Shown one piece after another: positions 4,326-28,626 of a DNA stretch of 58,998 nt. This DNA is from Escherichia phage vB_Eco_SLUR25. Each line of letters opens with the position of its first letter. Positions within the stretch are counted from its first letter, which is position 1. The stretch lies in sequence record LT907986.1. One strand, 5' to 3'. The position numbers and the translations under genes were made by a program. The notes below the pieces were generated by a model that saw only the letters and a program-made list of their open reading frames with translations, did not search any database and was not told the DNA's origin.

Positions 4326-5129
4326 TTACAAGCCGTTCAGGGCTTCCGGTACTGGCATAGGTACGCGACCAGTTACACCATTAAACTTCTTCCAACGTGC
4401 ATACTGAGTTTTAACAGTATCTTCGTTCAGACCGTGGCGACCAGCCAGATTCAGAACATAAGAGATCGGAGCAGGCTGACCCAGCGTAGCGCTAATCTGA
4501 TCCATCAGAGCCCAGGCACGACCGCAGGAAGTTTCAGGTTGTGGACGACGAACACCATTCTGTTCAGGCATACGGTTCGCTTCTTTCGCTTTTTCACGTT
4601 CAGCTTTTTCGCGGGCTTTTTCAGCAGCCTTTTCAGCCTGTTTAGCAGCGCGGATCTTGTCTTTGAAGCCTTTGATAGACGAATCCAGTTCGTCAACCAT
4701 GCTCTGCGCAGCAGTCACTGCACCGGACAGATCTTCACCTTTGGATTTTTTAACAACTGCTTTCAGATCTTTCAGAGCATTCTTTAAATGCTTCAGCTGT
4801 TCAGAACCCTTAGATTCTGCTTCCGTAATCTGTTCAACAGTGCTTTCATCGGTAATACCGGATAAAGCAAACTTCACGGTTTCAACTGCCTGGGAAAGAG
4901 CGGTAAATTTATTTTCAGCTTCAGTACGAATTTCAGCTTGTTTCTTTTCGGCGGCAGCTTTTTTCTCTGCTTCTTTTTTCTCTTTTGCTACGCGTGCAGC
5001 TTCAGCGGCAGCGGCTTTTTTAGCTTCTGCGTCGTTAGCAGTAGCTTCTTTCTTTGCAGGCTTAGCAGATTTTGCAGCGGCAGCAGCGGCTGCGGCAGCA
5101 GCGGCTTTCTTATCTTCAATATTACTCAT
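4326..5129 (-). CDS. Ala/Lys/Glu-rich low-complexity protein with a conserved C-terminal domain (paralogous to C-terminus of 20655..21269 product)
   Basis: ATG at 5129 with RBS GGAGTG 6 nt upstream (5138 is GTG); poly-Ala run encoded by GCN repeats near 5075..5110; C-terminus NGVRRP...W...LG.P...TV..QYARWKKFNG. Confidence 0.55.
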   Translation of the reverse strand: MSNIEDKKAAAAAAAAAAAKSAKPAKKEATANDAEAKKAAAAEAARVAKEKKEAEKKAAAEKKQAEIRTEAENKFTALSQAVETVKFALSGITDESTVEQITEAESKGSEQLKHLKNALKDLKAVVKKSKGEDLSGAVTAAQSMVDELDSSIKGFKDKIRAAKQAEKAAEKAREKAEREKAKEANRMPEQNGVRRPQPETSCGRAWALMDQISATLGQPAPISYVLNLAGRHGLNEDTVKTQYARWKKFNGVTGRVPMPVPEALNGL

Positions 5130-5256
5130 TTTCTTCACTCCGAATTATTATGGGTTCGTTTGTTACCAACGGGGTTAAATGTACCAAAGGATTTTGTGAC
5201 ACGCAACCCCTTACATAAACATTTTTAAAAATATTTTTGATCAGGGTTAGAACTTA

Positions 5257-5751
5257 TTAGCTCTTCGCACCTCTGCCCGGTGTCCATGCTGCTTGCAATG
5301 CGGGTCGCTCACAAATGACCCTGGCACCGGAAATAATACTACCCTCCCGTTCAGCATCGTATTTGACACGGGCAGGTTTCCAAAGTCCTTCATCCATTGA
5401 CGGAACGTATTGCCCAATTTGAGGTGAGCAAAAGCCTTGGATATCGTATTCCACACAGAATTCGGCTTGTGCGCTGATTTGGGCGTGATCCAGGATTGTT
5501 TCTGGAAGTTGCGTAAAGTAATCAAACAAAATGCGCTCAACAATTTCCCGTTCATAAGGTGCAGCTCCTAAGTTTTCTGTCAGGTTAATATAAAGCATTT
5601 GAAGATCAACATCTTCAAGATCTTTTAAATCGTTTACTGGTGTTACCAGTGTTGACTCTGGACAACAAATAATTCCAAGTTGGTGTAGTGTCAGCCAATT
5701 GGGATGCTTTGCCAAGAGTTCAAATTTATCTGTATCAATCAGGACGTACAT
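5257..5751 (-). CDS. hypothetical protein
   Basis: 164 aa ORF; ATG at 5751 preceded by AGGGGAT RBS. Confidence 0.5.
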   Translation of the reverse strand: MYVLIDTDKFELLAKHPNWLTLHQLGIICCPESTLVTPVNDLKDLEDVDLQMLYINLTENLGAAPYEREIVERILFDYFTQLPETILDHAQISAQAEFCVEYDIQGFCSPQIGQYVPSMDEGLWKPARVKYDAEREGSIISGARVICERPALQAAWTPGRGAKS

Positions 5752-24292: not shown

Positions 24293-24343
24293 TTATCAAT
24301 CTATAATGGGCTCTACGGAGCCCTTAATTATCTGGAGATTGTT

Positions 24344-24640
24344 ATGCTGTATTTAGGAATGGACGAAACTGGACACGCGATTCCTTCCGTTAGCAAGGAG
24401 ACGCAAGTATTTACCGACTATTACGGGTCTGCTGTCCCTGTTGAGCCCTGGGCTAACTTTATCGCTGTAGACGCAGACGGTAAAGTACATTGTTATGACG
24501 CCAAACCTTCTTGCTATGAATCTGGTAAGCAATGGATGCTTGGCGTATACGGTTTGCATGTTCGCTATTGCGGCGAAGTTGACATTGAAGGTGTGGACTG
24601 GCGCGATACGTTGAAGGAGATTAAAGATGTCCGCGGCTGA
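24344..24640 (+). CDS. hypothetical protein
   Basis: 98 aa; RBS GGAG. Confidence 0.5.
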   Translation: MLYLGMDETGHAIPSVSKETQVFTDYYGSAVPVEPWANFIAVDADGKVHCYDAKPSCYESGKQWMLGVYGLHVRYCGEVDIEGVDWRDTLKEIKDVRG

Positions 24641-24716
24641 AGTTACAACATTTATAATAGCTTTTGCTGTTGCTTTATTCCTTATAGCTAAGTTAGATTT
24701 AATGATGGGATAGTTT

Positions 24717-24941
24717 ATGCGCTTACTCATGGTGTTAGGCGTTATACTTGCCGCTTTCGTTGTATTTGCAATTGTAGACTCTAAAGAAATGGAGCGGCAA
24801 AACTGCCAACGTACTGGTAACAGCCGGGATGATATTATTTGGCAATATATTTACGATGCAAAAGGTAATGTTATGTCAATGTATCCTCAGGTTATTACTG
24901 AGTATGAATATAAATGCAATGACCGTAACAGGTGGAGATAA
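24717..24941 (+). CDS. small membrane protein
   Basis: 74 aa with N-terminal hydrophobic helix LLMVLGVILAAFVVFAIV. Confidence 0.45.
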   Translation: MRLLMVLGVILAAFVVFAIVDSKEMERQNCQRTGNSRDDIIWQYIYDAKGNVMSMYPQVITEYEYKCNDRNRWR

Positions 24942-24943
24942 TA

Positions 24944-25483
24944 ATGAGCTGTCAAAAATGTAACGGAACGGGAATGGTTGATAGTGGTGGAGTTCAACCG
25001 TGGGGTGATCCTATTCTGGTGGAGTGCGATTGTTTATATCGTGAGCGCGATGCTTGGGAGCTGGATCAAGCTGGAGGTTATTACTCCCGCCATGTTATGG
25101 CAATGACATCCGAAGGTTTGCACAGCAAAGGTGATATTGCTGCGGAGCTAGGCTATCGTGACATGCGCATTGACCAGCTAGAAGCTGAATGGCGTGCTCA
25201 GGAAGAACGTGCAGAAAATGCTGAGACGGATCTTGTCGACATGCGTGCTGCTGAGCACGCTCTATCCGATTCTTATATTCGTTTGCGTCAAATTGTTGGT
25301 GCAATGAATCCGCCTGGTGTGAGCAGCGAAGAGGTGTGGGCGCATACCGAGAAGAAGGCTCAAGAGTTGCGTGATCGCTGCGAAGCTCTGGAAGCTGTAG
25401 CAAAGGACTTCCTGCGTCGTAATAAATATGGTCCTTTGTTCTATCGTGATCTGTATAACCGTTTTAAGGAGATTGTAAAATGA
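24944..25483 (+). CDS. hypothetical protein with N-terminal Cys4 zinc-ribbon-like motif
   Basis: ATG 24944 with GGTGGAG RBS; CQKCNGTG ... ECDC. Confidence 0.5.
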   Translation: MSCQKCNGTGMVDSGGVQPWGDPILVECDCLYRERDAWELDQAGGYYSRHVMAMTSEGLHSKGDIAAELGYRDMRIDQLEAEWRAQEERAENAETDLVDMRAAEHALSDSYIRLRQIVGAMNPPGVSSEEVWAHTEKKAQELRDRCEALEAVAKDFLRRNKYGPLFYRDLYNRFKEIVK

Positions 25484-25749
25484 TTACTGCTCAAGAAGCT
25501 CGTGAATTAAGCGATAAGCTGGATATTAGCGAAGATATTGAATTTATCAGTGACAGCATTCGCGTAGCTGCTACAAAGGGATACAATAAAGTATCACTGG
25601 TAACCAAATACGGCGCTGTTGGCAATCCTGACACTCAAGACCCGACCACTATGAAGATTGCTAAATGGTTAGCTGATTCTGGTTTTACGGTGTTATATTA
25701 TCCTTCAATGGACCAACGTGATAACGAGCGTACTGAGGTGGCATGGTGA
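25480..25749 (+). CDS. hypothetical protein
   Basis: 89 aa ORF overlapping upstream stop. Confidence 0.5.
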   Translation: MITAQEARELSDKLDISEDIEFISDSIRVAATKGYNKVSLVTKYGAVGNPDTQDPTTMKIAKWLADSGFTVLYYPSMDQRDNERTEVAW

Positions 25750-25816
25750 TTGAAGAAAATATCAAATATTGGAAAGGCTTTATTGACGAAATGTTGAAAC
25801 CGTTGGAGAAGAAATA

Positions 25817-26209
25817 ATGCTATTAGTCGTCACCGGAGGTCGAAATTTTAAGCATGTGGAGTATATTTATGCTCAATTGGATAAGCTGCATATGCAAAGA
25901 AGGATAACCACACTTCGCCACGGTGACGCTGACGGTGTTGACCGCATTTGCGCACAGTGGGCAGAGCGCAACGGTATTAAGACAGAAGCGTTCCCTGCCC
26001 CGTGGGACAATCTTTCCTTACCAAATACCAAGATACGGTATAACGCCAAAGGTGCTTATAACGCACAAGCAGGCGCTTATCGCAATCAATTAATGCTGGA
26101 TACCGATCCTAAACCGGATCACGCTATTGTGTTTCCTGGCGGAGCTGGTACTATGGATATGTACAGACGGATTAAAGCATCCGGTATTCCTTACACATTA
26201 GCGGAGTAA
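25817..26209 (+). CDS. SLOG/DUF2493-like (Rossmann-like ligand-binding) protein
   Basis: LLVVTGGRNF ... HGDADGVDRICAQWAERNG ... FPGGAGTMDM resembles recalled DUF2493/YspA pattern. Confidence 0.4.
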   Translation: MLLVVTGGRNFKHVEYIYAQLDKLHMQRRITTLRHGDADGVDRICAQWAERNGIKTEAFPAPWDNLSLPNTKIRYNAKGAYNAQAGAYRNQLMLDTDPKPDHAIVFPGGAGTMDMYRRIKASGIPYTLAE

Positions 26210-26212
26210 ATA

Positions 26213-26683
26213 ATGGCTGACGTTAAAACTATTGTTGATGCAATGGACGAATCCAAAGACTGCCAACTGAAGAAGTCATTTGAAGTAAAACAGGTTACAG
26301 AGACTCAGTTGGTTTGTAATTTTGCGCGTTATTGTGGACTGGGGCGCGGGAAAGACTGGAACGGGCTTATTGTTATGCCCACATCACAGATTCTCGTTTA
26401 CGTCCGCAACGTTGTAGAAGATGTTCTGCGTCTTCAGGTTGAAATTGGTGACGTAGAAATTAACATGACCGCGAGTTCTACCATTGTGGTTAAATGGCAG
26501 TCGGGCGAGACACTGCGTTTGGAAGCGTGTCATTGTGCTAAGAGCTTGCACCACCTGCGCGGCTGTCATTACCAGTTCGTTGGGTTTGTACATCCGCAAG
26601 GGTTAAGCGAGCGTACGGCGCTGGTAGCGCGTTTGCTGCTGCGTCCTTATAATAACGAGCCGGAAGTTATATACGAGGCATAA
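26213..26683 (+). CDS. hypothetical protein
   Basis: 156 aa ORF. Confidence 0.5.
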   Translation: MADVKTIVDAMDESKDCQLKKSFEVKQVTETQLVCNFARYCGLGRGKDWNGLIVMPTSQILVYVRNVVEDVLRLQVEIGDVEINMTASSTIVVKWQSGETLRLEACHCAKSLHHLRGCHYQFVGFVHPQGLSERTALVARLLLRPYNNEPEVIYEA

Positions 26684-26684
26684 A

Positions 26685-27110
26685 ATGTCAGTAAATTTTG
26701 TCAAACAGCCAACTTTAAATACATGCGTTTCTGCGTGTTTGGCAATGATCCTTAATAAACCTGTTGAGAAGGTTATTGAGGAATTTCATAGTCGTTATTA
26801 TAACAACTGGGAAATCACTATCAGCGAATATTTGACTAAAAACGGCGTCCAGCATCATTGTTCAGAAGGTGGTGGACGTGAAACTTTGCATATGGGAGGT
26901 TTGTTCCTGTGCACGGTGCCAAGTCTTAATATTCCTGGCGCATTGCACCAGATTGTGATTGATATGACGGATCACAAGTTTATTGTGCATGATCCAATTA
27001 AAGGATGGGAAGGTAAAAAGTTCTATGTTGGTCCGGATCAAGATCCTGAAGAGCCTGGAGCTTTTATCATTCATACTTGGGTCAAAGACGTTGAAATCCT
27101 GCCTTATTAA
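26685..27110 (+). CDS. papain-like cysteine peptidase (C39-like)
   Basis: N-terminal Q-x5-C in KQPTLNTCVSACLAMIL and downstream His/Asp (FIVHDP), as in C39 peptidases. Confidence 0.45.
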   Translation: MSVNFVKQPTLNTCVSACLAMILNKPVEKVIEEFHSRYYNNWEITISEYLTKNGVQHHCSEGGGRETLHMGGLFLCTVPSLNIPGALHQIVIDMTDHKFIVHDPIKGWEGKKFYVGPDQDPEEPGAFIIHTWVKDVEILPY

Positions 27111-27172
27111 TTTTCTTGCTATCACATAACCCTTCATTGTATTGTGTACCCATCGAATAAGAGGGGTACACA

Positions 27173-27358
27173 ATGACCAAACTATACGCCGGATTGTTTT
27201 TATTTGCGACGTTAATGTTCGCTGGGCTTTATACCTATACAGTAGTCGAACAACCTTCCACGGTTATCCGAATCTTTGCAAGTATAGGGCTTTGCATCTG
27301 TCTTATTCTATTTGTTTTATGCATTGTTATTATCCAAGACCAAAGGAAAATTAAATGA
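27173..27358 (+). CDS. small two-helix membrane protein
   Basis: 61 aa, two hydrophobic segments. Confidence 0.45.
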   Translation: MTKLYAGLFLFATLMFAGLYTYTVVEQPSTVIRIFASIGLCICLILFVLCIVIIQDQRKIK

Positions 27359-27819
27359 CCACAATTGCGTTTGATGGAAAAGTATTAGCCGCGGACCGTG
27401 GAGTTATGCGCGGGGAAGCCGTGACTGCTTATAAGAAAGTTCATAGCGTGAATGGACATCGTGGACGGTTTTTACTGGGCTTGTGCGGCCTTACAGCATT
27501 TACCGATCAGGTGTTGCGTTATTTTAATAGCGCGGAACCTGTTAAGTTCCCTGATATTAAACTTTACAGCAAAGATGATGATTACGGGCAAACTTGCGGT
27601 CTTGCTGTCACTCCGGAAGGTACTTGCCATTTTATTTATAATGATGGTACTTTGAGCGAGCCCATGCTGGATGGATGGGGGTCTGAGGGTAGCGGTTGTG
27701 TGTTTGCTGCTGGCGCGTTAGCTGCTGGTGCAAGTGCGAGCGAAGCTATTGAGTTGGCAATTAAACACACCACATGCGCATTCCTGGGAGTTGATACAAT
27801 ATCATTTGAGGGTTTTTAA
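27355..27819 (+). CDS. Ntn-hydrolase of the HslV/proteasome beta-subunit type
   Basis: N-terminus MTTIAFDGKVLAADRG (Thr after initiator Met), internal KKV, C-terminal GSEGSG...AAGA...EAIELA resembling recalled HslV. Confidence 0.45.
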   Translation: MTTIAFDGKVLAADRGVMRGEAVTAYKKVHSVNGHRGRFLLGLCGLTAFTDQVLRYFNSAEPVKFPDIKLYSKDDDYGQTCGLAVTPEGTCHFIYNDGTLSEPMLDGWGSEGSGCVFAAGALAAGASASEAIELAIKHTTCAFLGVDTISFEGF

Positions 27820-28080
27820 ATGACTACATTCAGTCACCTGATCCCACCTGCTTATCATAGTAAGGTAGTTGACCACGGGACGCATGTTGTAATTGGTGGC
27901 GAAATCTTTATCACAGATAACGAGGAAATCGCCATTGCAATTATTGACAGCACTCAGCATGACTTTATGGTTATCCTGCAACACGAACCAGATAACTTCA
28001 CTTTTTACTCCAGCTACGGGGTCGATAAAGGTGGAAAAAGCCTTGTTAGCTGGTACATTAGCGAGTGGTTTGACGGGTAA
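27820..28080 (+). CDS. hypothetical protein
   Basis: 86 aa ORF. Confidence 0.45.
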   Translation: MTTFSHLIPPAYHSKVVDHGTHVVIGGEIFITDNEEIAIAIIDSTQHDFMVILQHEPDNFTFYSSYGVDKGGKSLVSWYISEWFDG

Positions 28081-28161
28081 TCTCCTTAGATCAATTCTCC
28101 TTGCGCCGTATCAAGTTTCTCTGTTACCCTTGAGTGGTTCATGTCAAGCGGAGGAACTCGA

Positions 28162-28600
28162 TATGGCACTTCAACCTCGTGGTATTCGTAATAACAATCC
28201 AGGCAATATTCGCTGGGGTGATAATTGGCAGGGCTTAGTTCCTGCTGATAAGCGAACCGATAAATCTTTTGCTCAATTCACGCAACCGATTTACGGCATT
28301 CGTGCGCTAGCGAAAATCCTGACAAACTACACCAAACGTGAAGGCTTACCCAATGTGGGTAAGAAAAACATCGACACTGTACGTGAAATTATCGCTCGCT
28401 GGGCACCGCCTAACGAAAACGATACGGAAGCGTATATTCGCTCTGTTGCCAAAGCAATTGGTGTTCAACCTAACGATCCAATTAATGTCTTCGACAAGGC
28501 AATTATGTCAGGATTGGTGAAAGCAATCATTCGTCATGAAAATGGCATGATGCCCTATACCGACGACGTAATTAACCGCGCTATTGCAATGGTACTTTAA
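28162..28600 (+). CDS. putative endolysin (peptidoglycan hydrolase, class not determined)
   Basis: ATG 28162 with GGAGGA RBS; 146 aa; immediately upstream of holin and spanins; motif RNNNPGNIR. Confidence 0.45.
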
Positions 28601-28603
28601 CTG

Positions 28604-28626
28604 ACGGGGCGTTAGCCCCTTTTATT
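28604..28626 (+). terminator. terminator-like hairpin between endolysin and holin
   Basis: GGGGC-GTTA-GCCCC followed by TTTTATTT. Confidence 0.4.

What the first reader, a model, noticed from the sequence alone, without database searches (positions are those of the whole stretch)
25817..26209. SLOG/DUF2493-like small-ligand-binding protein among middle genes
The pattern LLVVTGGRNF...HGDADGVDRICAQWAERNG...FPGGAGTMDM resembles Rossmann-like SLOG/LOG-type domains that bind nucleotide-derived ligands. In a phage this could sequester a host signalling nucleotide or act in nucleotide metabolism linked to DNA modification.
Basis: inference. Interest (0 to 1): 0.4.

Follow-up and report, generated by a model that had tools for sequence, protein, structure and literature searches.

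The report
Phage DUF2493 (YAcAr) SLOG-domain protein
This small phage gene is a clear, ordinary member of a very large, already catalogued family of nucleotide-pocket proteins (DUF2493/YAcAr, SLOG superfamily) whose biochemical job nobody has yet measured; it is probably a helper in phage DNA replication or counter-defence, not part of the phage's DNA-modification pathway.

Summary
Window 25817..26209 (+) is a 130-aa ORF with a good ribosome-binding site and exactly the quoted motifs. It matches Pfam PF10686 (YAcAr, formerly DUF2493; SLOG superfamily) at 65.6 bits against a cut-off of 28.2.

The window is the genome of Escherichia phage vB_Eco_SLUR63 (Seuratvirus, Queuovirinae). The gene is conserved in about 32 Seuratvirus records under strong purifying selection (dN/dS 0.02-0.16). 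A confident AlphaFold model (pLDDT 96.5) is a Rossmann-like SLOG fold, closest to LOG, DprA, ShosA and Moco-carrier structures. No family member has a solved structure.

Pocket residues are 97-99% conserved across 434 sequences: G7-G8-R9, G36, G40-x-D42, R89-N90 and PGGxGT. The LOG catalytic Glu position is Met.

The family is very large (23,752 clusters at 50% identity). It is fused or adjacent to NADAR, DUF4326, helicases, primase zinc ribbon, DciA, sliding clamp and DNA methylases, but no single partner dominates.

The DNA-modification link is disfavoured, because sister phage 9g (DpdA+) lacks the gene. An anti-DarT1 role is disfavoured, because Bas25 carries a 97%-identical copy yet is DarTG1-sensitive. 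The function remains untested. My best guess (about 0.4) is binding or cleavage of ADP-ribose-type ligands. This is a known family of modest interest.

The parts
25817..26209 (+). CDS, 130 aa, stand-alone YAcAr (DUF2493) SLOG domain; gp134 of Escherichia phage vB_Eco_SLUR63
   Evidence: ORF list and sequence; PF10686 at 65.6 bits vs cut-off 28.2; 100% match to LR025196.1 gp134; AF2 pLDDT 96.5; dN/dS 0.02-0.16
25805..25808 (+). Ribosome-binding site GGAG, 8 nt before the ATG
   Evidence: Read directly from the sequence; the equivalent position is annotated as an RBS for CPT_Seurat80 in phage Seurat
25835..25843 (+). Codons for G7-G8-R9: glycine-rich loop after strand 1 (nucleotide/phosphate-contact loop of Rossmann-like folds)
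   Evidence: G7 0.99, G8 0.97, R9 0.98 conserved in 434 unique family sequences; strand 1 = residues 2-6 in the model
25922..25942 (+). Codons for G36-D-A38-D-G40-V-D42: loop after strand 2 and start of helix 2. Contains the YpsA-clade 'GxD/E' signature (G40-x-D42) and resembles the DprA 'SGxAxGID' motif
   Evidence: G36 0.99, A38 0.93, G40 0.99, D42 0.98; GxD/E motif described for the YpsA clade in PMC6459960; motif-level alignment to E. coli Smf, not statistically significant
26012..26056 (+). Codons for residues 66-80: a 15-residue beta-hairpin insert between strand 3 and helix 3, present in about half of the family
   Evidence: Gap in the 113-115-aa members; strands 73-76 and 79-82 in the model, pLDDT 91-93; present in 220 of 434 sequences, with P69, R/K74 and G79 conserved
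26081..26086 (+). Codons for R89-N90 in the helix after strand 3: the active-site position that distinguishes the TIR/DrHyd/SLOG clade. By motif spacing it is the counterpart of the Arg in the PpnN 'KR' motif (typical LOG 'RK' recalled from memory)
   Evidence: R89 0.99, N90 0.98; helix 85-95; clade description in PMC9503650; PpnN sequence read (equivalence is inference from spacing, not from a significant alignment)
26135..26161 (+). Codons for P107-G-G-A-G-T-M-D114-M115: LOG-type PGGxGT motif after strand 4, with Asp at +8 and Met where LOG has its Glu
   Evidence: hhalign to E. coli PpnN aligns HAIVFPGGAGTMDMY with GIIIFPGGVGTAEEL; G108 0.98, G111 0.99, T112 0.98, D114 0.88, M115 0.94; 58 of 111 members weakly hit PF03641

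Best explanation
The gene encodes a stand-alone YAcAr-family (DUF2493) SLOG domain. Shown here: family membership, a confident Rossmann-like fold, strong purifying selection, and a nearly invariant set of residues (G7-G8-R9; G36, G40-x-D42; R89-N90; P107-G-G-x-G-T112-x-D114). All of these sit at the C-terminal ends of the strands, which is the classical nucleotide pocket. Inferred: the pocket holds a ribose-phosphate-containing ligand. By analogy with LOG-type N-glycosidases, and because the domain is repeatedly fused or adjacent to NADAR (an enzyme that removes ADP-ribose from DNA bases) and DUF4326, the protein most likely recognises, and probably cleaves, an ADP-ribose-type N-glycosidic conjugate. 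That conjugate could be soluble or attached to nucleic acid. The protein would act as an accessory of phage DNA replication and establishment against host attack. It is not required for the phage's 7-deazaguanine DNA modification.
For: Membership: PF10686 at 65.6 bits vs 28.2. All 111 aligned relatives hit it.

Fold: pLDDT 96.5, order b1-a1-b2-a2-b3-(hairpin)-a3-b4-a4-b5. The nearest PDB folds are LOG 1wek/5wq3, ShosA 8zva (TMq 0.71), DprA 3uqz/4ljk and Moco carrier 2iz7. There are 62 viral models at E<=1e-3, many named YspA/DUF2493.

Pocket conservation: 0.97-0.99 for G7, G8, R9, G36, G40, D42, R89, N90, G108, G111 and T112 in 434 sequences.

LOG-like motif: the PGGxGT alignment to PpnN, and 58 of 111 members weakly match PF03641.

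ADP-ribose link: YAcAr+NADAR (P0251); NADAR-DarT1 + 3x YAcAr + DUF4326 (P0203); DUF4326+YAcAr (P0040). NADAR is directly adjacent in 3 of 3 independent locus groups where it occurs. Iyer et al. 2022 report the same fusions plus Macro, and predict cleavage or sensing of ADPr derivatives (PMC9503650). NADAR is now shown to reverse guanine ADP-ribosylation (PMC11543638).

Replication link: CHC2 primase zinc ribbon + YAcAr (P0127). The gene overlaps a DEAD/ResIII helicase start in a replication module. It lies between the clamp and the DNA polymerase in phage Iggy. It follows DciA in a Streptomyces plasmid, and DciA fusions are reported. ICP1 HelB is an SF1B helicase with a C-terminal DUF2493.

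Selection: dN/dS 0.02-0.16.
Against: No biochemical datum exists for any YAcAr protein in the library searched.

This genome shows no NADAR, Macro, Nudix, ART or DUF4326 partner among the 25 Pfam families listed of 38 found, nor in a PHROG-annotated relative. The local neighbours are all of unknown function.

Fusions and adjacency to NADAR/DUF4326 involve only a few per cent of members. No neighbour family exceeds 10 of 109 independent locus groups.

The canonical LOG Glu of PGGxGTxxE is Met in 94% of members, so LOG-type catalysis cannot simply be assumed.

Seuratvirus Bas25 (VogelGryff) carries a 97%-identical orthologue yet is reported as inhibited by DarTG1 (PMC11257639). The protein therefore does not effectively reverse DarT1 guanine ADP-ribosylation.
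Confidence: 0.4

Rival explanations
1. DprA/ShosA-like single-stranded-DNA-binding accessory. The SLOG pocket holds a nucleotide of ssDNA, and the protein works non-catalytically at the phage replisome or in recombination, for example by loading or protecting ssDNA.
For: The best TM-scores in the PDB are ShosA 8zva (0.71) and DprA 3uqz/4ljk/5mll (0.67). ShosA binds ssDNA (PMC11961720). Fusions or adjacency to primase zinc ribbon, DciA, SF1B and DEAD helicases, sliding clamp and DNA polymerase. pI 9.3. The hairpin insert has a conserved R/K74. G36xAxGxD resembles the DprA SGxAxGID motif. Several mycobacteriophage orthologues are annotated 'DprA-like'.
Against: No significant sequence relation to DprA: hhalign probability 0.4%, and only 7 of 111 members give weak PF02481 hits. 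The protein lacks the SAM and C-terminal domains of DprA/ShosA (130 aa, single domain). The near-invariant residues include acidic and amide side chains (D42, N90, D114) typical of a small-ligand or catalytic pocket, not a DNA-backbone surface. The NADAR/DUF4326 fusions are not explained.
Confidence: 0.2
2. One reading: a non-catalytic sponge or sensor that sequesters a host immune signalling nucleotide (cADPR isomers, cyclic oligonucleotides), like Tad1/Tad2/Acb2.
For: SLOG domains of the YpsA-like clade include sensors of cADPR-type signals (PMC9503650). The protein is small, stand-alone, abundant in phages (556 of 50,697 records) and has a conserved pocket. On conjugative plasmids it lies in a region rich in anti-restriction-type genes.
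Against: No top-50 PDB fold match is a known sponge or the Thoeris ThsA SLOG, and there is no PADLOC hit. The family is equally common in cellular genomes and also occurs in plasmids (137 records) and in giant viruses of amoebae. Fusion to enzymes and replication proteins and conservation of Arg/Asn/Asp at the clade's active-site position fit an enzyme or DNA-linked role better.
Confidence: 0.13
3. A nucleotide-pool enzyme, that is a LOG/PpnN-like nucleoside-monophosphate N-glycosidase. This would include the reader's suggestion that it serves the 7-deazaguanine DNA-modification pathway of this phage.
For: PGGxGT motif and an Arg at LOG-like spacing. 58 of 111 members weakly hit the LOG family. 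dCMP deaminase recurs nearby in 6 locus groups. In phage Iggy the gene lies one to two genes from DpdA. One annotation pipeline calls it 'phosphoribosyl transferase'.
Against: The LOG catalytic Glu position is Met. No member reaches the LOG gathering score. Phage 9g makes modified DNA with DpdA but has no YAcAr gene. The biggest YAcAr-carrying phage groups (Klebsiella 108, Salmonella 88, Rhodobacter 24, Dickeya 19 records) are absent or nearly absent from the DpdA list. In this genome the gene is about 26 kb from the deazaguanine cluster and on the other strand. From established knowledge of the pathway, preQ0 is made as a free base, so no nucleosidase step is needed.
Confidence: 0.1
4. A GTP-binding protein, as the PHROG-derived annotation 'GTP-binding domain' in RefSeq records says.
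For: PHROG 289 carries this label and matches at E=4e-23. Several records repeat it.
Against: Read directly from the sequence, there is no Walker A/P-loop (GxxxxGK[ST]) and no NKxD motif. The fold and profile assign it to SLOG, not to P-loop GTPases. The label is not backed by any experiment found in the library.
Confidence: 0.02

Closest known systems
Pfam PF10686 YAcAr ('YspA, cpYpsA-related SLOG family', formerly DUF2493), YpsA-like clade of the SLOG superfamily
   Same: Full member. It scores above the gathering threshold and has the same length class and the same invariant G-G-R, GxD, R-N and PGGxGT residues. Like most viral members it is a stand-alone protein.
   Different: Nothing essential. 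It belongs to the half of the family that carries a 15-residue beta-hairpin insert. The Pfam model covers only residues 3-64, so the conserved C-terminal half lies outside it.
LOG / PpnN nucleotide 5'-monophosphate N-glycosidases (PF03641)
   Same: Same superfamily fold (1wek, 5wq3, 1weh among the top PDB matches). It shares the PGGxGT phosphate/ribose motif and an Arg in the preceding helix.
   Different: The Glu of PGGxGTxxE is Met and an Asp sits one position earlier. It is much smaller, does not reach the family threshold, and no nucleosidase activity is known.
DprA/Smf and the Shosta antitoxin ShosA (ssDNA-binding SLOG proteins)
   Same: Highest TM-scores among solved structures (0.67-0.71). 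A G-x-A-x-G-x-D motif after strand 2. Association with DNA replication and recombination genes.
   Different: No significant sequence similarity. It lacks the SAM and C-terminal domains. DNA binding is not tested.
B. subtilis YpsA and the SLOG sensor domain of Thoeris ThsA
   Same: Same clade according to Iyer et al. 2022. It shares the GxD/E substrate-binding signature. A link to NAD+/ADP-ribose has been predicted.
   Different: Neither appears among the top 50 fold matches. YpsA affects cell division and ThsA is a host defence effector, whereas this is a phage stand-alone domain.
NADAR (DarT1-associated antitoxin; phage AdfN)
   Same: Recurrent fusion and neighbour partner of YAcAr. NADAR cleaves a base-to-ADP-ribose N-glycosidic bond, the chemistry proposed here.
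   Different: Unrelated fold. This genome shows no NADAR among the Pfam families listed. A Seuratvirus with this gene is still DarTG1-sensitive.
Phage nucleotide sponges (Tad1, Tad2, Acb2)
   Different: No fold or sequence relation was detected here. The YAcAr distribution (cells, plasmids, giant viruses, enzyme fusions) is unlike that of known sponges.

Membership tests
Pfam PF10686 YAcAr / DUF2493 (SLOG superfamily) | Score above Pfam's curated gathering threshold | tested here: met
   65.6 bits vs 28.2, E=3.5e-18, model positions 3-64 of 66
Pfam PF10686 YAcAr / DUF2493 (SLOG superfamily) | Rossmann-like three-layer alpha/beta fold with five parallel strands, related to Smf/DprA and LOG | tested here: met
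   AF2 model pLDDT 96.5, b-a-b-a-b-(hairpin)-a-b-a-b. The top PDB fold matches are LOG, ShosA, DprA and Moco carrier. This is a predicted, not an experimental, structure.
Pfam PF10686 YAcAr / DUF2493 (SLOG superfamily) | Glycine-rich substrate loop after strand 1 | tested here: met
   G7-G8-R9, 0.97-0.99 conserved in 434 sequences
Pfam PF10686 YAcAr / DUF2493 (SLOG superfamily) | YpsA-clade GxD/E substrate-binding signature | tested here: met
   G40-V41-D42; G40 0.99, D42 0.98; signature as described in PMC6459960
Pfam PF10686 YAcAr / DUF2493 (SLOG superfamily) | [quoted passage not shown] | tested here: met
   R89 0.99, N90 0.98 in helix 85-95; clade feature as described in PMC9503650
Pfam PF10686 YAcAr / DUF2493 (SLOG superfamily) | Binds or processes a nucleotide-derived ligand | not testable with these tools
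   No ligand docking or assay is available, and no experimental report was found
LOG / PpnN N-glycosidases (PF03641) | Complete PGGxGTxxE motif with the terminal Glu | tested here: not met
   PGGAGTMDM: Met115 occupies the Glu position (94% Met in the family) and Asp114 sits one earlier
LOG / PpnN N-glycosidases (PF03641) | Profile score above family threshold | tested here: not met
   No PF03641 hit for the window protein at E<=1; only sub-threshold hits in 58 of 111 relatives, best E=0.0014
DprA/Smf (PF02481) | Profile or profile-profile similarity to DprA | tested here: not met
   hhalign vs E. coli Smf: probability 0.4%; 7 of 111 weak hits
DprA/Smf (PF02481) | ssDNA binding | not testable with these tools
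   Only indirect hints: pI 9.3, fold similarity, replication-gene context
P-loop GTP-binding proteins (PHROG 289 label 'GTP-binding domain') | Walker A GxxxxGK[ST] and NKxD guanine-specificity motifs | tested here: not met
   Neither motif is present in the 130-aa sequence read; the fold is SLOG
7-deazaguanine DNA-modification system (DpdA, FolE, QueD, QueE, QueC) | Co-inheritance with DpdA across modifying phages | tested here: not met
   9g (DpdA+) has no YAcAr, best E=0.9. YAcAr is in 556 phage records and DpdA in 236, with largely different genus profiles. The gene is adjacent to the cluster only in Iggy-like phages.
Anti-DarT1 DNA de-ADP-ribosylases (NADAR/AdfN-like function) | Protects the phage from DarTG1 | tested here: not met
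   Bas25/VogelGryff encodes a 97%-identical orthologue but is reported as inhibited by DarTG1 (PMC11257639). This is a literature phenotype, not a gene knock-out.
Known anti-phage defence proteins (PADLOC-DB) | Match to any defence-system model | tested here: not met
   No family at E<=1

The most novel reading that the evidence does not exclude
YAcAr proteins are a new class of phage and mobile-element counter-defence N-glycosidases. They would work at the replication fork to strip ADP-ribose-type adducts from DNA bases other than the DarT1 guanine adduct, or to destroy ADP-ribose-derived immune signals, complementing NADAR and Macro enzymes. The Seuratvirus copy, in genetically tractable E. 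coli phages of the BASEL collection, would be the first handle on a family of more than 20,000 protein clusters.
Probability: 0.22. Interest if true: 0.7.

Novelty: already known. Interest (0 to 1): 0.28.

Why it matters
Taken alone, the finding is a correct family assignment that public databases already contain: a member of the same 90% cluster is named 'Protein of unknown function (DUF2493)'. What gives it some value is that the family is very large, with 23,752 clusters at 50% identity and about 1.1% of sequenced phage genomes. It spans phages, plasmids, bacteria and giant viruses, and has been predicted for a decade to act on NAD+/ADP-ribose derivatives. Yet it has no solved structure and no measured activity in the literature searched. 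Seuratviruses infect E. coli K-12 and are in the BASEL collection (Bas22, Bas23 and Bas25 carry 97-100% identical copies), so this orthologue is a convenient entry point for the first biochemical and genetic test. The work here also corrects misleading annotations ('GTP-binding domain', 'phosphoribosyl transferase', 'DprA-like', 'moco carrier') and narrows the hypotheses: the gene is not needed for deazaguanine modification and is not an effective anti-DarT1 factor.

Tried and rejected
- Sequence search of the PDB with the single protein found nothing. With the 111-sequence profile it gave only weak, probably spurious hits: BtuF at 0.004, Moco carrier 3imk at 0.046, DarA at 0.29.
- NCBIfam gave only a meaningless TrmH hit at E=0.13. 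PADLOC gave nothing.
- Pfam on ten neighbouring genes gave nothing. PHROGs gave only 'unknown function', apart from an HslV-like peptidase, so local guilt-by-association inside this phage is empty.
- The promoter/terminator scan of 21-30 kb gave 22 and 9 sites against 18.8 and 8.5 expected, so no timing class can be assigned.
- My first neighbour analysis lost the YAcAr ORF in 62 of 160 loci, because the greedy ORF picker preferred longer spurious ORFs. I redid it with HMM-seeded ORFs. The result was that no neighbour family exceeds 10 of 109 independent groups.
- The idea that YAcAr tracks 7-deazaguanine phages was rejected. It had been prompted by Iggy, the Queuovirinae, Campylobacter F336 and the haloviruses.
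- The idea that it reverses DarT1 guanine ADP-ribosylation was weakened by the Bas25 phenotype.
- The family-defining paper (Burroughs et al. 2015, NAR) is not held in the library. Its content is cited only through later papers by the same group.
- The KpAvs2 paper mentioning Bas25 was read and is irrelevant to this gene.
- hhalign against single E. coli PpnN and Smf sequences aligned only short motifs. I did not build family profiles for LOG or DprA.
Full report
**1. What is there**

The window is the complete, rotated genome of Escherichia phage vB_Eco_SLUR63 (LR025196.1, 58,998 bp). It is a Seuratvirus of the subfamily Queuovirinae. At 25817..26209 on the + strand there is a 130-codon ORF (ATG to TAA). 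A GGAG ribosome-binding site lies at 25805-25808, and the same position is annotated as an RBS in phage Seurat. The gene is gp134 of the deposited record. The window has exactly one copy.

**2. Is it real and more than chance**

- Pfam PF10686 matches at E=3.5e-18, 65.6 bits against a gathering score of 28.2. This family is YAcAr, 'YspA, cpYpsA-related SLOG family', the renamed DUF2493.
- PHROG 289 matches at 4e-23.
- The gene is present at 95% amino-acid identity or more in 32 phage records. NG86 dN/dS against six orthologues is 0.02-0.16, which indicates strong purifying selection.
- A 67%-identical metagenomic relative keeps the same position, upstream of the lysis and terminase genes.

**3. 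Structure**

With a 111-sequence alignment (A2), AlphaFold2 gives pLDDT 96.5 and pTM 0.88. The order of elements is b1(2-6)-a1-b2(32-35)-a2-b3(55-58)-hairpin(73-76/79-82)-a3(85-95)-b4(102-105)-a4-b5(126-128).

Foldseek against the PDB returns no match at E<=1e-3. The best hits are all SLOG-superfamily members:
- LOG TT1465 1wek (1.8e-3), type-II LOG 5wq3 and TT1887 1weh
- ShosA 8zva (TMq 0.71)
- DprA 3uqz, 4ljk, 5mll and 3maj (TMq about 0.67)
- Moco carrier 2iz7

No YAcAr-family structure therefore appears to have been solved. Sequence searches of the PDB agree. Against predicted viral structures there are 62 matches at E<=1e-3 (top TMq 0.94). Many are labelled YspA/DUF2493, from phages, an archaeal virus, and Pandoravirus and Marseillevirus.

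**4. Conserved residues**

I aligned 434 unique family sequences to the profile. These comprised database representatives plus 160 fetched loci. The residues conserved at 0.97 or more are G7, G8, R9, G36, G40, D42, W48, W63, G86, R89, N90, M93, G108, G111 and T112. D114 is 0.88 and M115 is 0.94.

Mapped on the model, they all lie in the loops at the C-terminal ends of the strands and the first turns of the following helices. That is the standard Rossmann-like ligand crevice (inference).
- G40-x-D42 is the 'GxD/E' substrate-binding signature of the YpsA clade (PMC6459960).
- R89-N90 sit in the helix after strand 3. This is the position that distinguishes the TIR/DrHyd/SLOG clade's active site (PMC9503650).
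- P107-G-G-A-G-T112 is the LOG-type motif. hhalign aligns HAIVFPGGAGTMDMY with GIIIFPGGVGTAEEL of E. coli PpnN.
- 58 of 111 family members give sub-threshold hits to the LOG family PF03641.

The Glu that ends the LOG motif PGGxGTxxE is Met here and in 94% of the family, with Asp one residue earlier. The protein is therefore LOG-like but not a LOG.

The Pfam model covers only residues 3-64. The equally conserved C-terminal half lies outside it.

About half of the family (220 of 434), including this protein, has a 15-residue beta-hairpin insert at residues 66-80. Within it P69, R/K74 and G79 are conserved.

**5. Size and spread of the family**

- An exhaustive profile search finds 23,752 clusters (50% identity) at E<=1e-3 and 9,071 at E<=1e-10.
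- tblastn finds it in 556 of 50,697 phage records, across Klebsiella, Vibrio, Salmonella, Escherichia, Mycobacterium, Rhodobacter, Dickeya and other phages.
- It is in 137 plasmids, 79 of them conjugative.
- It is in many bacterial genomes, largely Alphaproteobacteria and Planctomycetota.
- Public names for orthologues conflict: 'gp134', 'hypothetical', 'GTP-binding domain', 'phosphoribosyl transferase', 'DprA-like', 'moco carrier protein', 'DNA binding protein', 'DUF2493'.
- The GTP-binding label is not supported. There is no P-loop or NKxD motif in the sequence.

**6. Context**

Inside this phage the neighbours are uninformative. Ten flanking genes have no Pfam hit, and PHROGs gives only unknown families, except an HslV-like peptidase. 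The promoter/terminator scan equals chance. The proteome scan listed no NADAR, Macro, Nudix, ART or DUF4326 among the 25 Pfam families shown out of 38 found. A PHROG-annotated sister genome agrees.

Across the family, two themes recur.

(a) ADP-ribose enzymes:
- YAcAr+NADAR (P0251); NADAR-DarT1 + three YAcAr + DUF4326 (P0203, 1,099 aa); DUF4326+YAcAr (P0040).
- Two more DUF4326 fusions among 31 longer members.
- A stand-alone NADAR directly adjacent in all 3 independent locus groups where it occurs.

(b) DNA replication and modification:
- Primase CHC2 zinc ribbon + YAcAr (P0127).
- The gene overlaps the start of a DEAD/ResIII helicase in a replication module, followed by methylases.
- MTase-helicase, toprim, then a 313-aa DUF2493 protein on an Agrobacterium conjugative plasmid.
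- DciA-DUF2493-ParB on a Streptomyces plasmid, and DciA-YAcAr fusions.
- C5-methylase-YAcAr-HNH-ParB in Sashavirus Sergei.
- Clamp-YAcAr-x-DNA polymerase in phage Iggy.
- SF1B helicase HelB of ICP1 with a C-terminal DUF2493.

In my clustering of 160 loci (109 independent groups) no partner dominates: N6/N4 DNA methylase 10 groups, integrase 8, DEAD/ResIII helicase 7, dCMP deaminase 6, sliding clamp 4, NADAR 3, DUF6884 3.

**7. Literature**

Iyer, Burroughs and Aravind (2021, 2022) surveyed viral SLOG domains. They found them mostly YpsA-like and stand-alone, and more frequent in larger phage genomes. They found fusions to Macro, NADAR and DUF4326, and sporadically to HTH, HNH, exonuclease, SF1 helicase and guanylate kinase. 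They predicted that the domains sense or cleave ADP-ribose derivatives, and noted that they 'remain experimentally uncharacterized'. My searches found no later experimental work on a YAcAr protein. NADAR is now known to reverse guanine ADP-ribosylation by DarT1, and phages use orphan NADARs against DarTG1.

**8. Tests of specific hypotheses**

DNA modification. This genome carries DpdA, FolE, QueD, QueE and QueC on the other strand, about 26 kb away. The DpdA-positive sister-genus phage 9g has no YAcAr at all, with a best six-frame HMM E-value of 0.9. The largest YAcAr-carrying groups are absent or nearly absent from the 236 DpdA-positive records. A required role in 7-deazaguanine modification is therefore disfavoured. 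Only Iggy-like phages place the gene next to DpdA, and there it sits between the clamp and the polymerase.

Anti-DarT1. BASEL phage Bas25 is VogelGryff, a Seuratvirus. Its gene bas25_0078 is 97% identical to the window protein. Bas25 is nevertheless reported as inhibited by DarTG1. The protein therefore does not give effective protection against guanine ADP-ribosylation. This is a whole-phage phenotype, not a knock-out.

DprA-like. The fold is similar, and ShosA binds ssDNA. However, sequence similarity is absent and the accessory domains are missing.

**9. Most likely mechanism**

Shown:
- membership of YAcAr/SLOG
- the fold (predicted)
- constraint on the gene
- a near-invariant pocket
- family-level links to NADAR/DUF4326 and to replication proteins

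Inferred:
- The pocket binds a ribose-phosphate-bearing ligand. By analogy with LOG chemistry and the partner enzymes, the protein recognises and probably cleaves an ADP-ribose-type N-glycosidic conjugate, soluble or on nucleic acid. It would act as an accessory to phage DNA replication and establishment under host attack (confidence about 0.4).
- Rivals: DprA-like ssDNA binder (0.2), non-catalytic sponge or sensor (0.13), nucleotide-pool enzyme or DNA-modification helper (0.1), GTP-binding protein (0.02).

**10. Novelty and verdict**

The family, its viral distribution and its predicted role are already published. A member of this protein's own 90% cluster is already named DUF2493 in public databases. 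It has residual interest because no activity or structure exists for the family, and because this orthologue sits in easily manipulated E. coli phages.

Noticed in passing
window 24932-25483 (+): The 183-aa ORF two genes upstream begins MEIIMSCQKCNGTGMVDSGG...VECDC. That is a CxxCxGxG-type cysteine motif like the DnaJ zinc-finger repeat, followed by a long helical, acidic region. There is no Pfam hit; it matches PHROG 34533 (unknown).
   Followed up: no
window 27355-27819 (+): A 154-aa protein matches PHROG 1040 'peptidase HslV family' (E=5e-32) but no Pfam family at E<=0.01. A phage-encoded HslV-like (Ntn-hydrolase) protein is conserved in Seuratvirus, and a shorter gene with the same label is annotated in 9g.
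   Followed up: partly
window 26685-27110 (+): The 141-aa protein (PHROG 4049, unknown) has an N-terminal '...QPTLNTCVSACLAM...' and a later 'GALHQIVIDMTDH' that read like a Cys/His papain- or C39-like peptidase arrangement. There is no Pfam hit, so this is only an impression.
   Followed up: no
window 24308-24323 and 28606-28619 (+): Two GC-rich hairpins followed by T-rich runs bracket the block 24344-28600. This suggests the YAcAr gene may be co-transcribed with the endolysin; the second hairpin corresponds to an annotated terminator in phage Seurat. Overall, the scan found no more terminator-like sites than in shuffled sequence.
   Followed up: partly
window 25817-26209; Pfam PF10686: The Pfam YAcAr model is only 66 positions long and covers residues 3-64. 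The C-terminal half of the real domain (R89-N90 and PGGxGT-x-D, 0.88-0.99 conserved) is not modelled. This may be why the LOG-like character of the family is not obvious from annotations.
   Followed up: yes
L178 (Pseudomonas phage Iggy MN029011.1) 4989-5354: In Iggy the YAcAr homologue lies in one operon with QueE-QueC-QueD-FolE-DpdA-x-sliding clamp-YAcAr-x-DNA polymerase. It therefore sits inside the replisome genes and next to the deazaguanine cluster, unlike in Seuratvirus.
   Followed up: partly
L176/L177 (Enterobacteria phage 9g NC_024146.1): The Nonagvirus type phage 9g lacks any YAcAr homologue although it shares the genome layout, so the gene is genus-level rather than subfamily-level in Queuovirinae. 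Metagenomic relatives with 67-70% identity and the same synteny exist (P0004-P0007, L011).
   Followed up: yes
Literature: PMC11257639 vs PMC8594841: The DarTG1 counter-defence preprint describes Bas25 (Queuovirinae) as having 'no known DNA modifications'. The BASEL paper states that Seuratvirus phages carry dPreQ0 in their DNA.
   Followed up: no
L007 (Agrobacterium plasmid pAtCFBP6623a) 6410-7351: On conjugative Rhizobiaceae plasmids the domain is the C-terminal third of a 313-aa protein. It sits after a 1,472-aa methyltransferase/DEAD-helicase and a toprim protein, and before ParDE and TraG. This looks like a leading-region or anti-restriction-type neighbourhood. The N-terminal 200 aa were not analysed.
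   Followed up: no
L036 2966-3388 and related loci: A DUF6884 protein (PF21818, E=2e-46) recurs within 2 kb of YAcAr in 3 independent locus groups. Its function is unknown.
   Followed up: no
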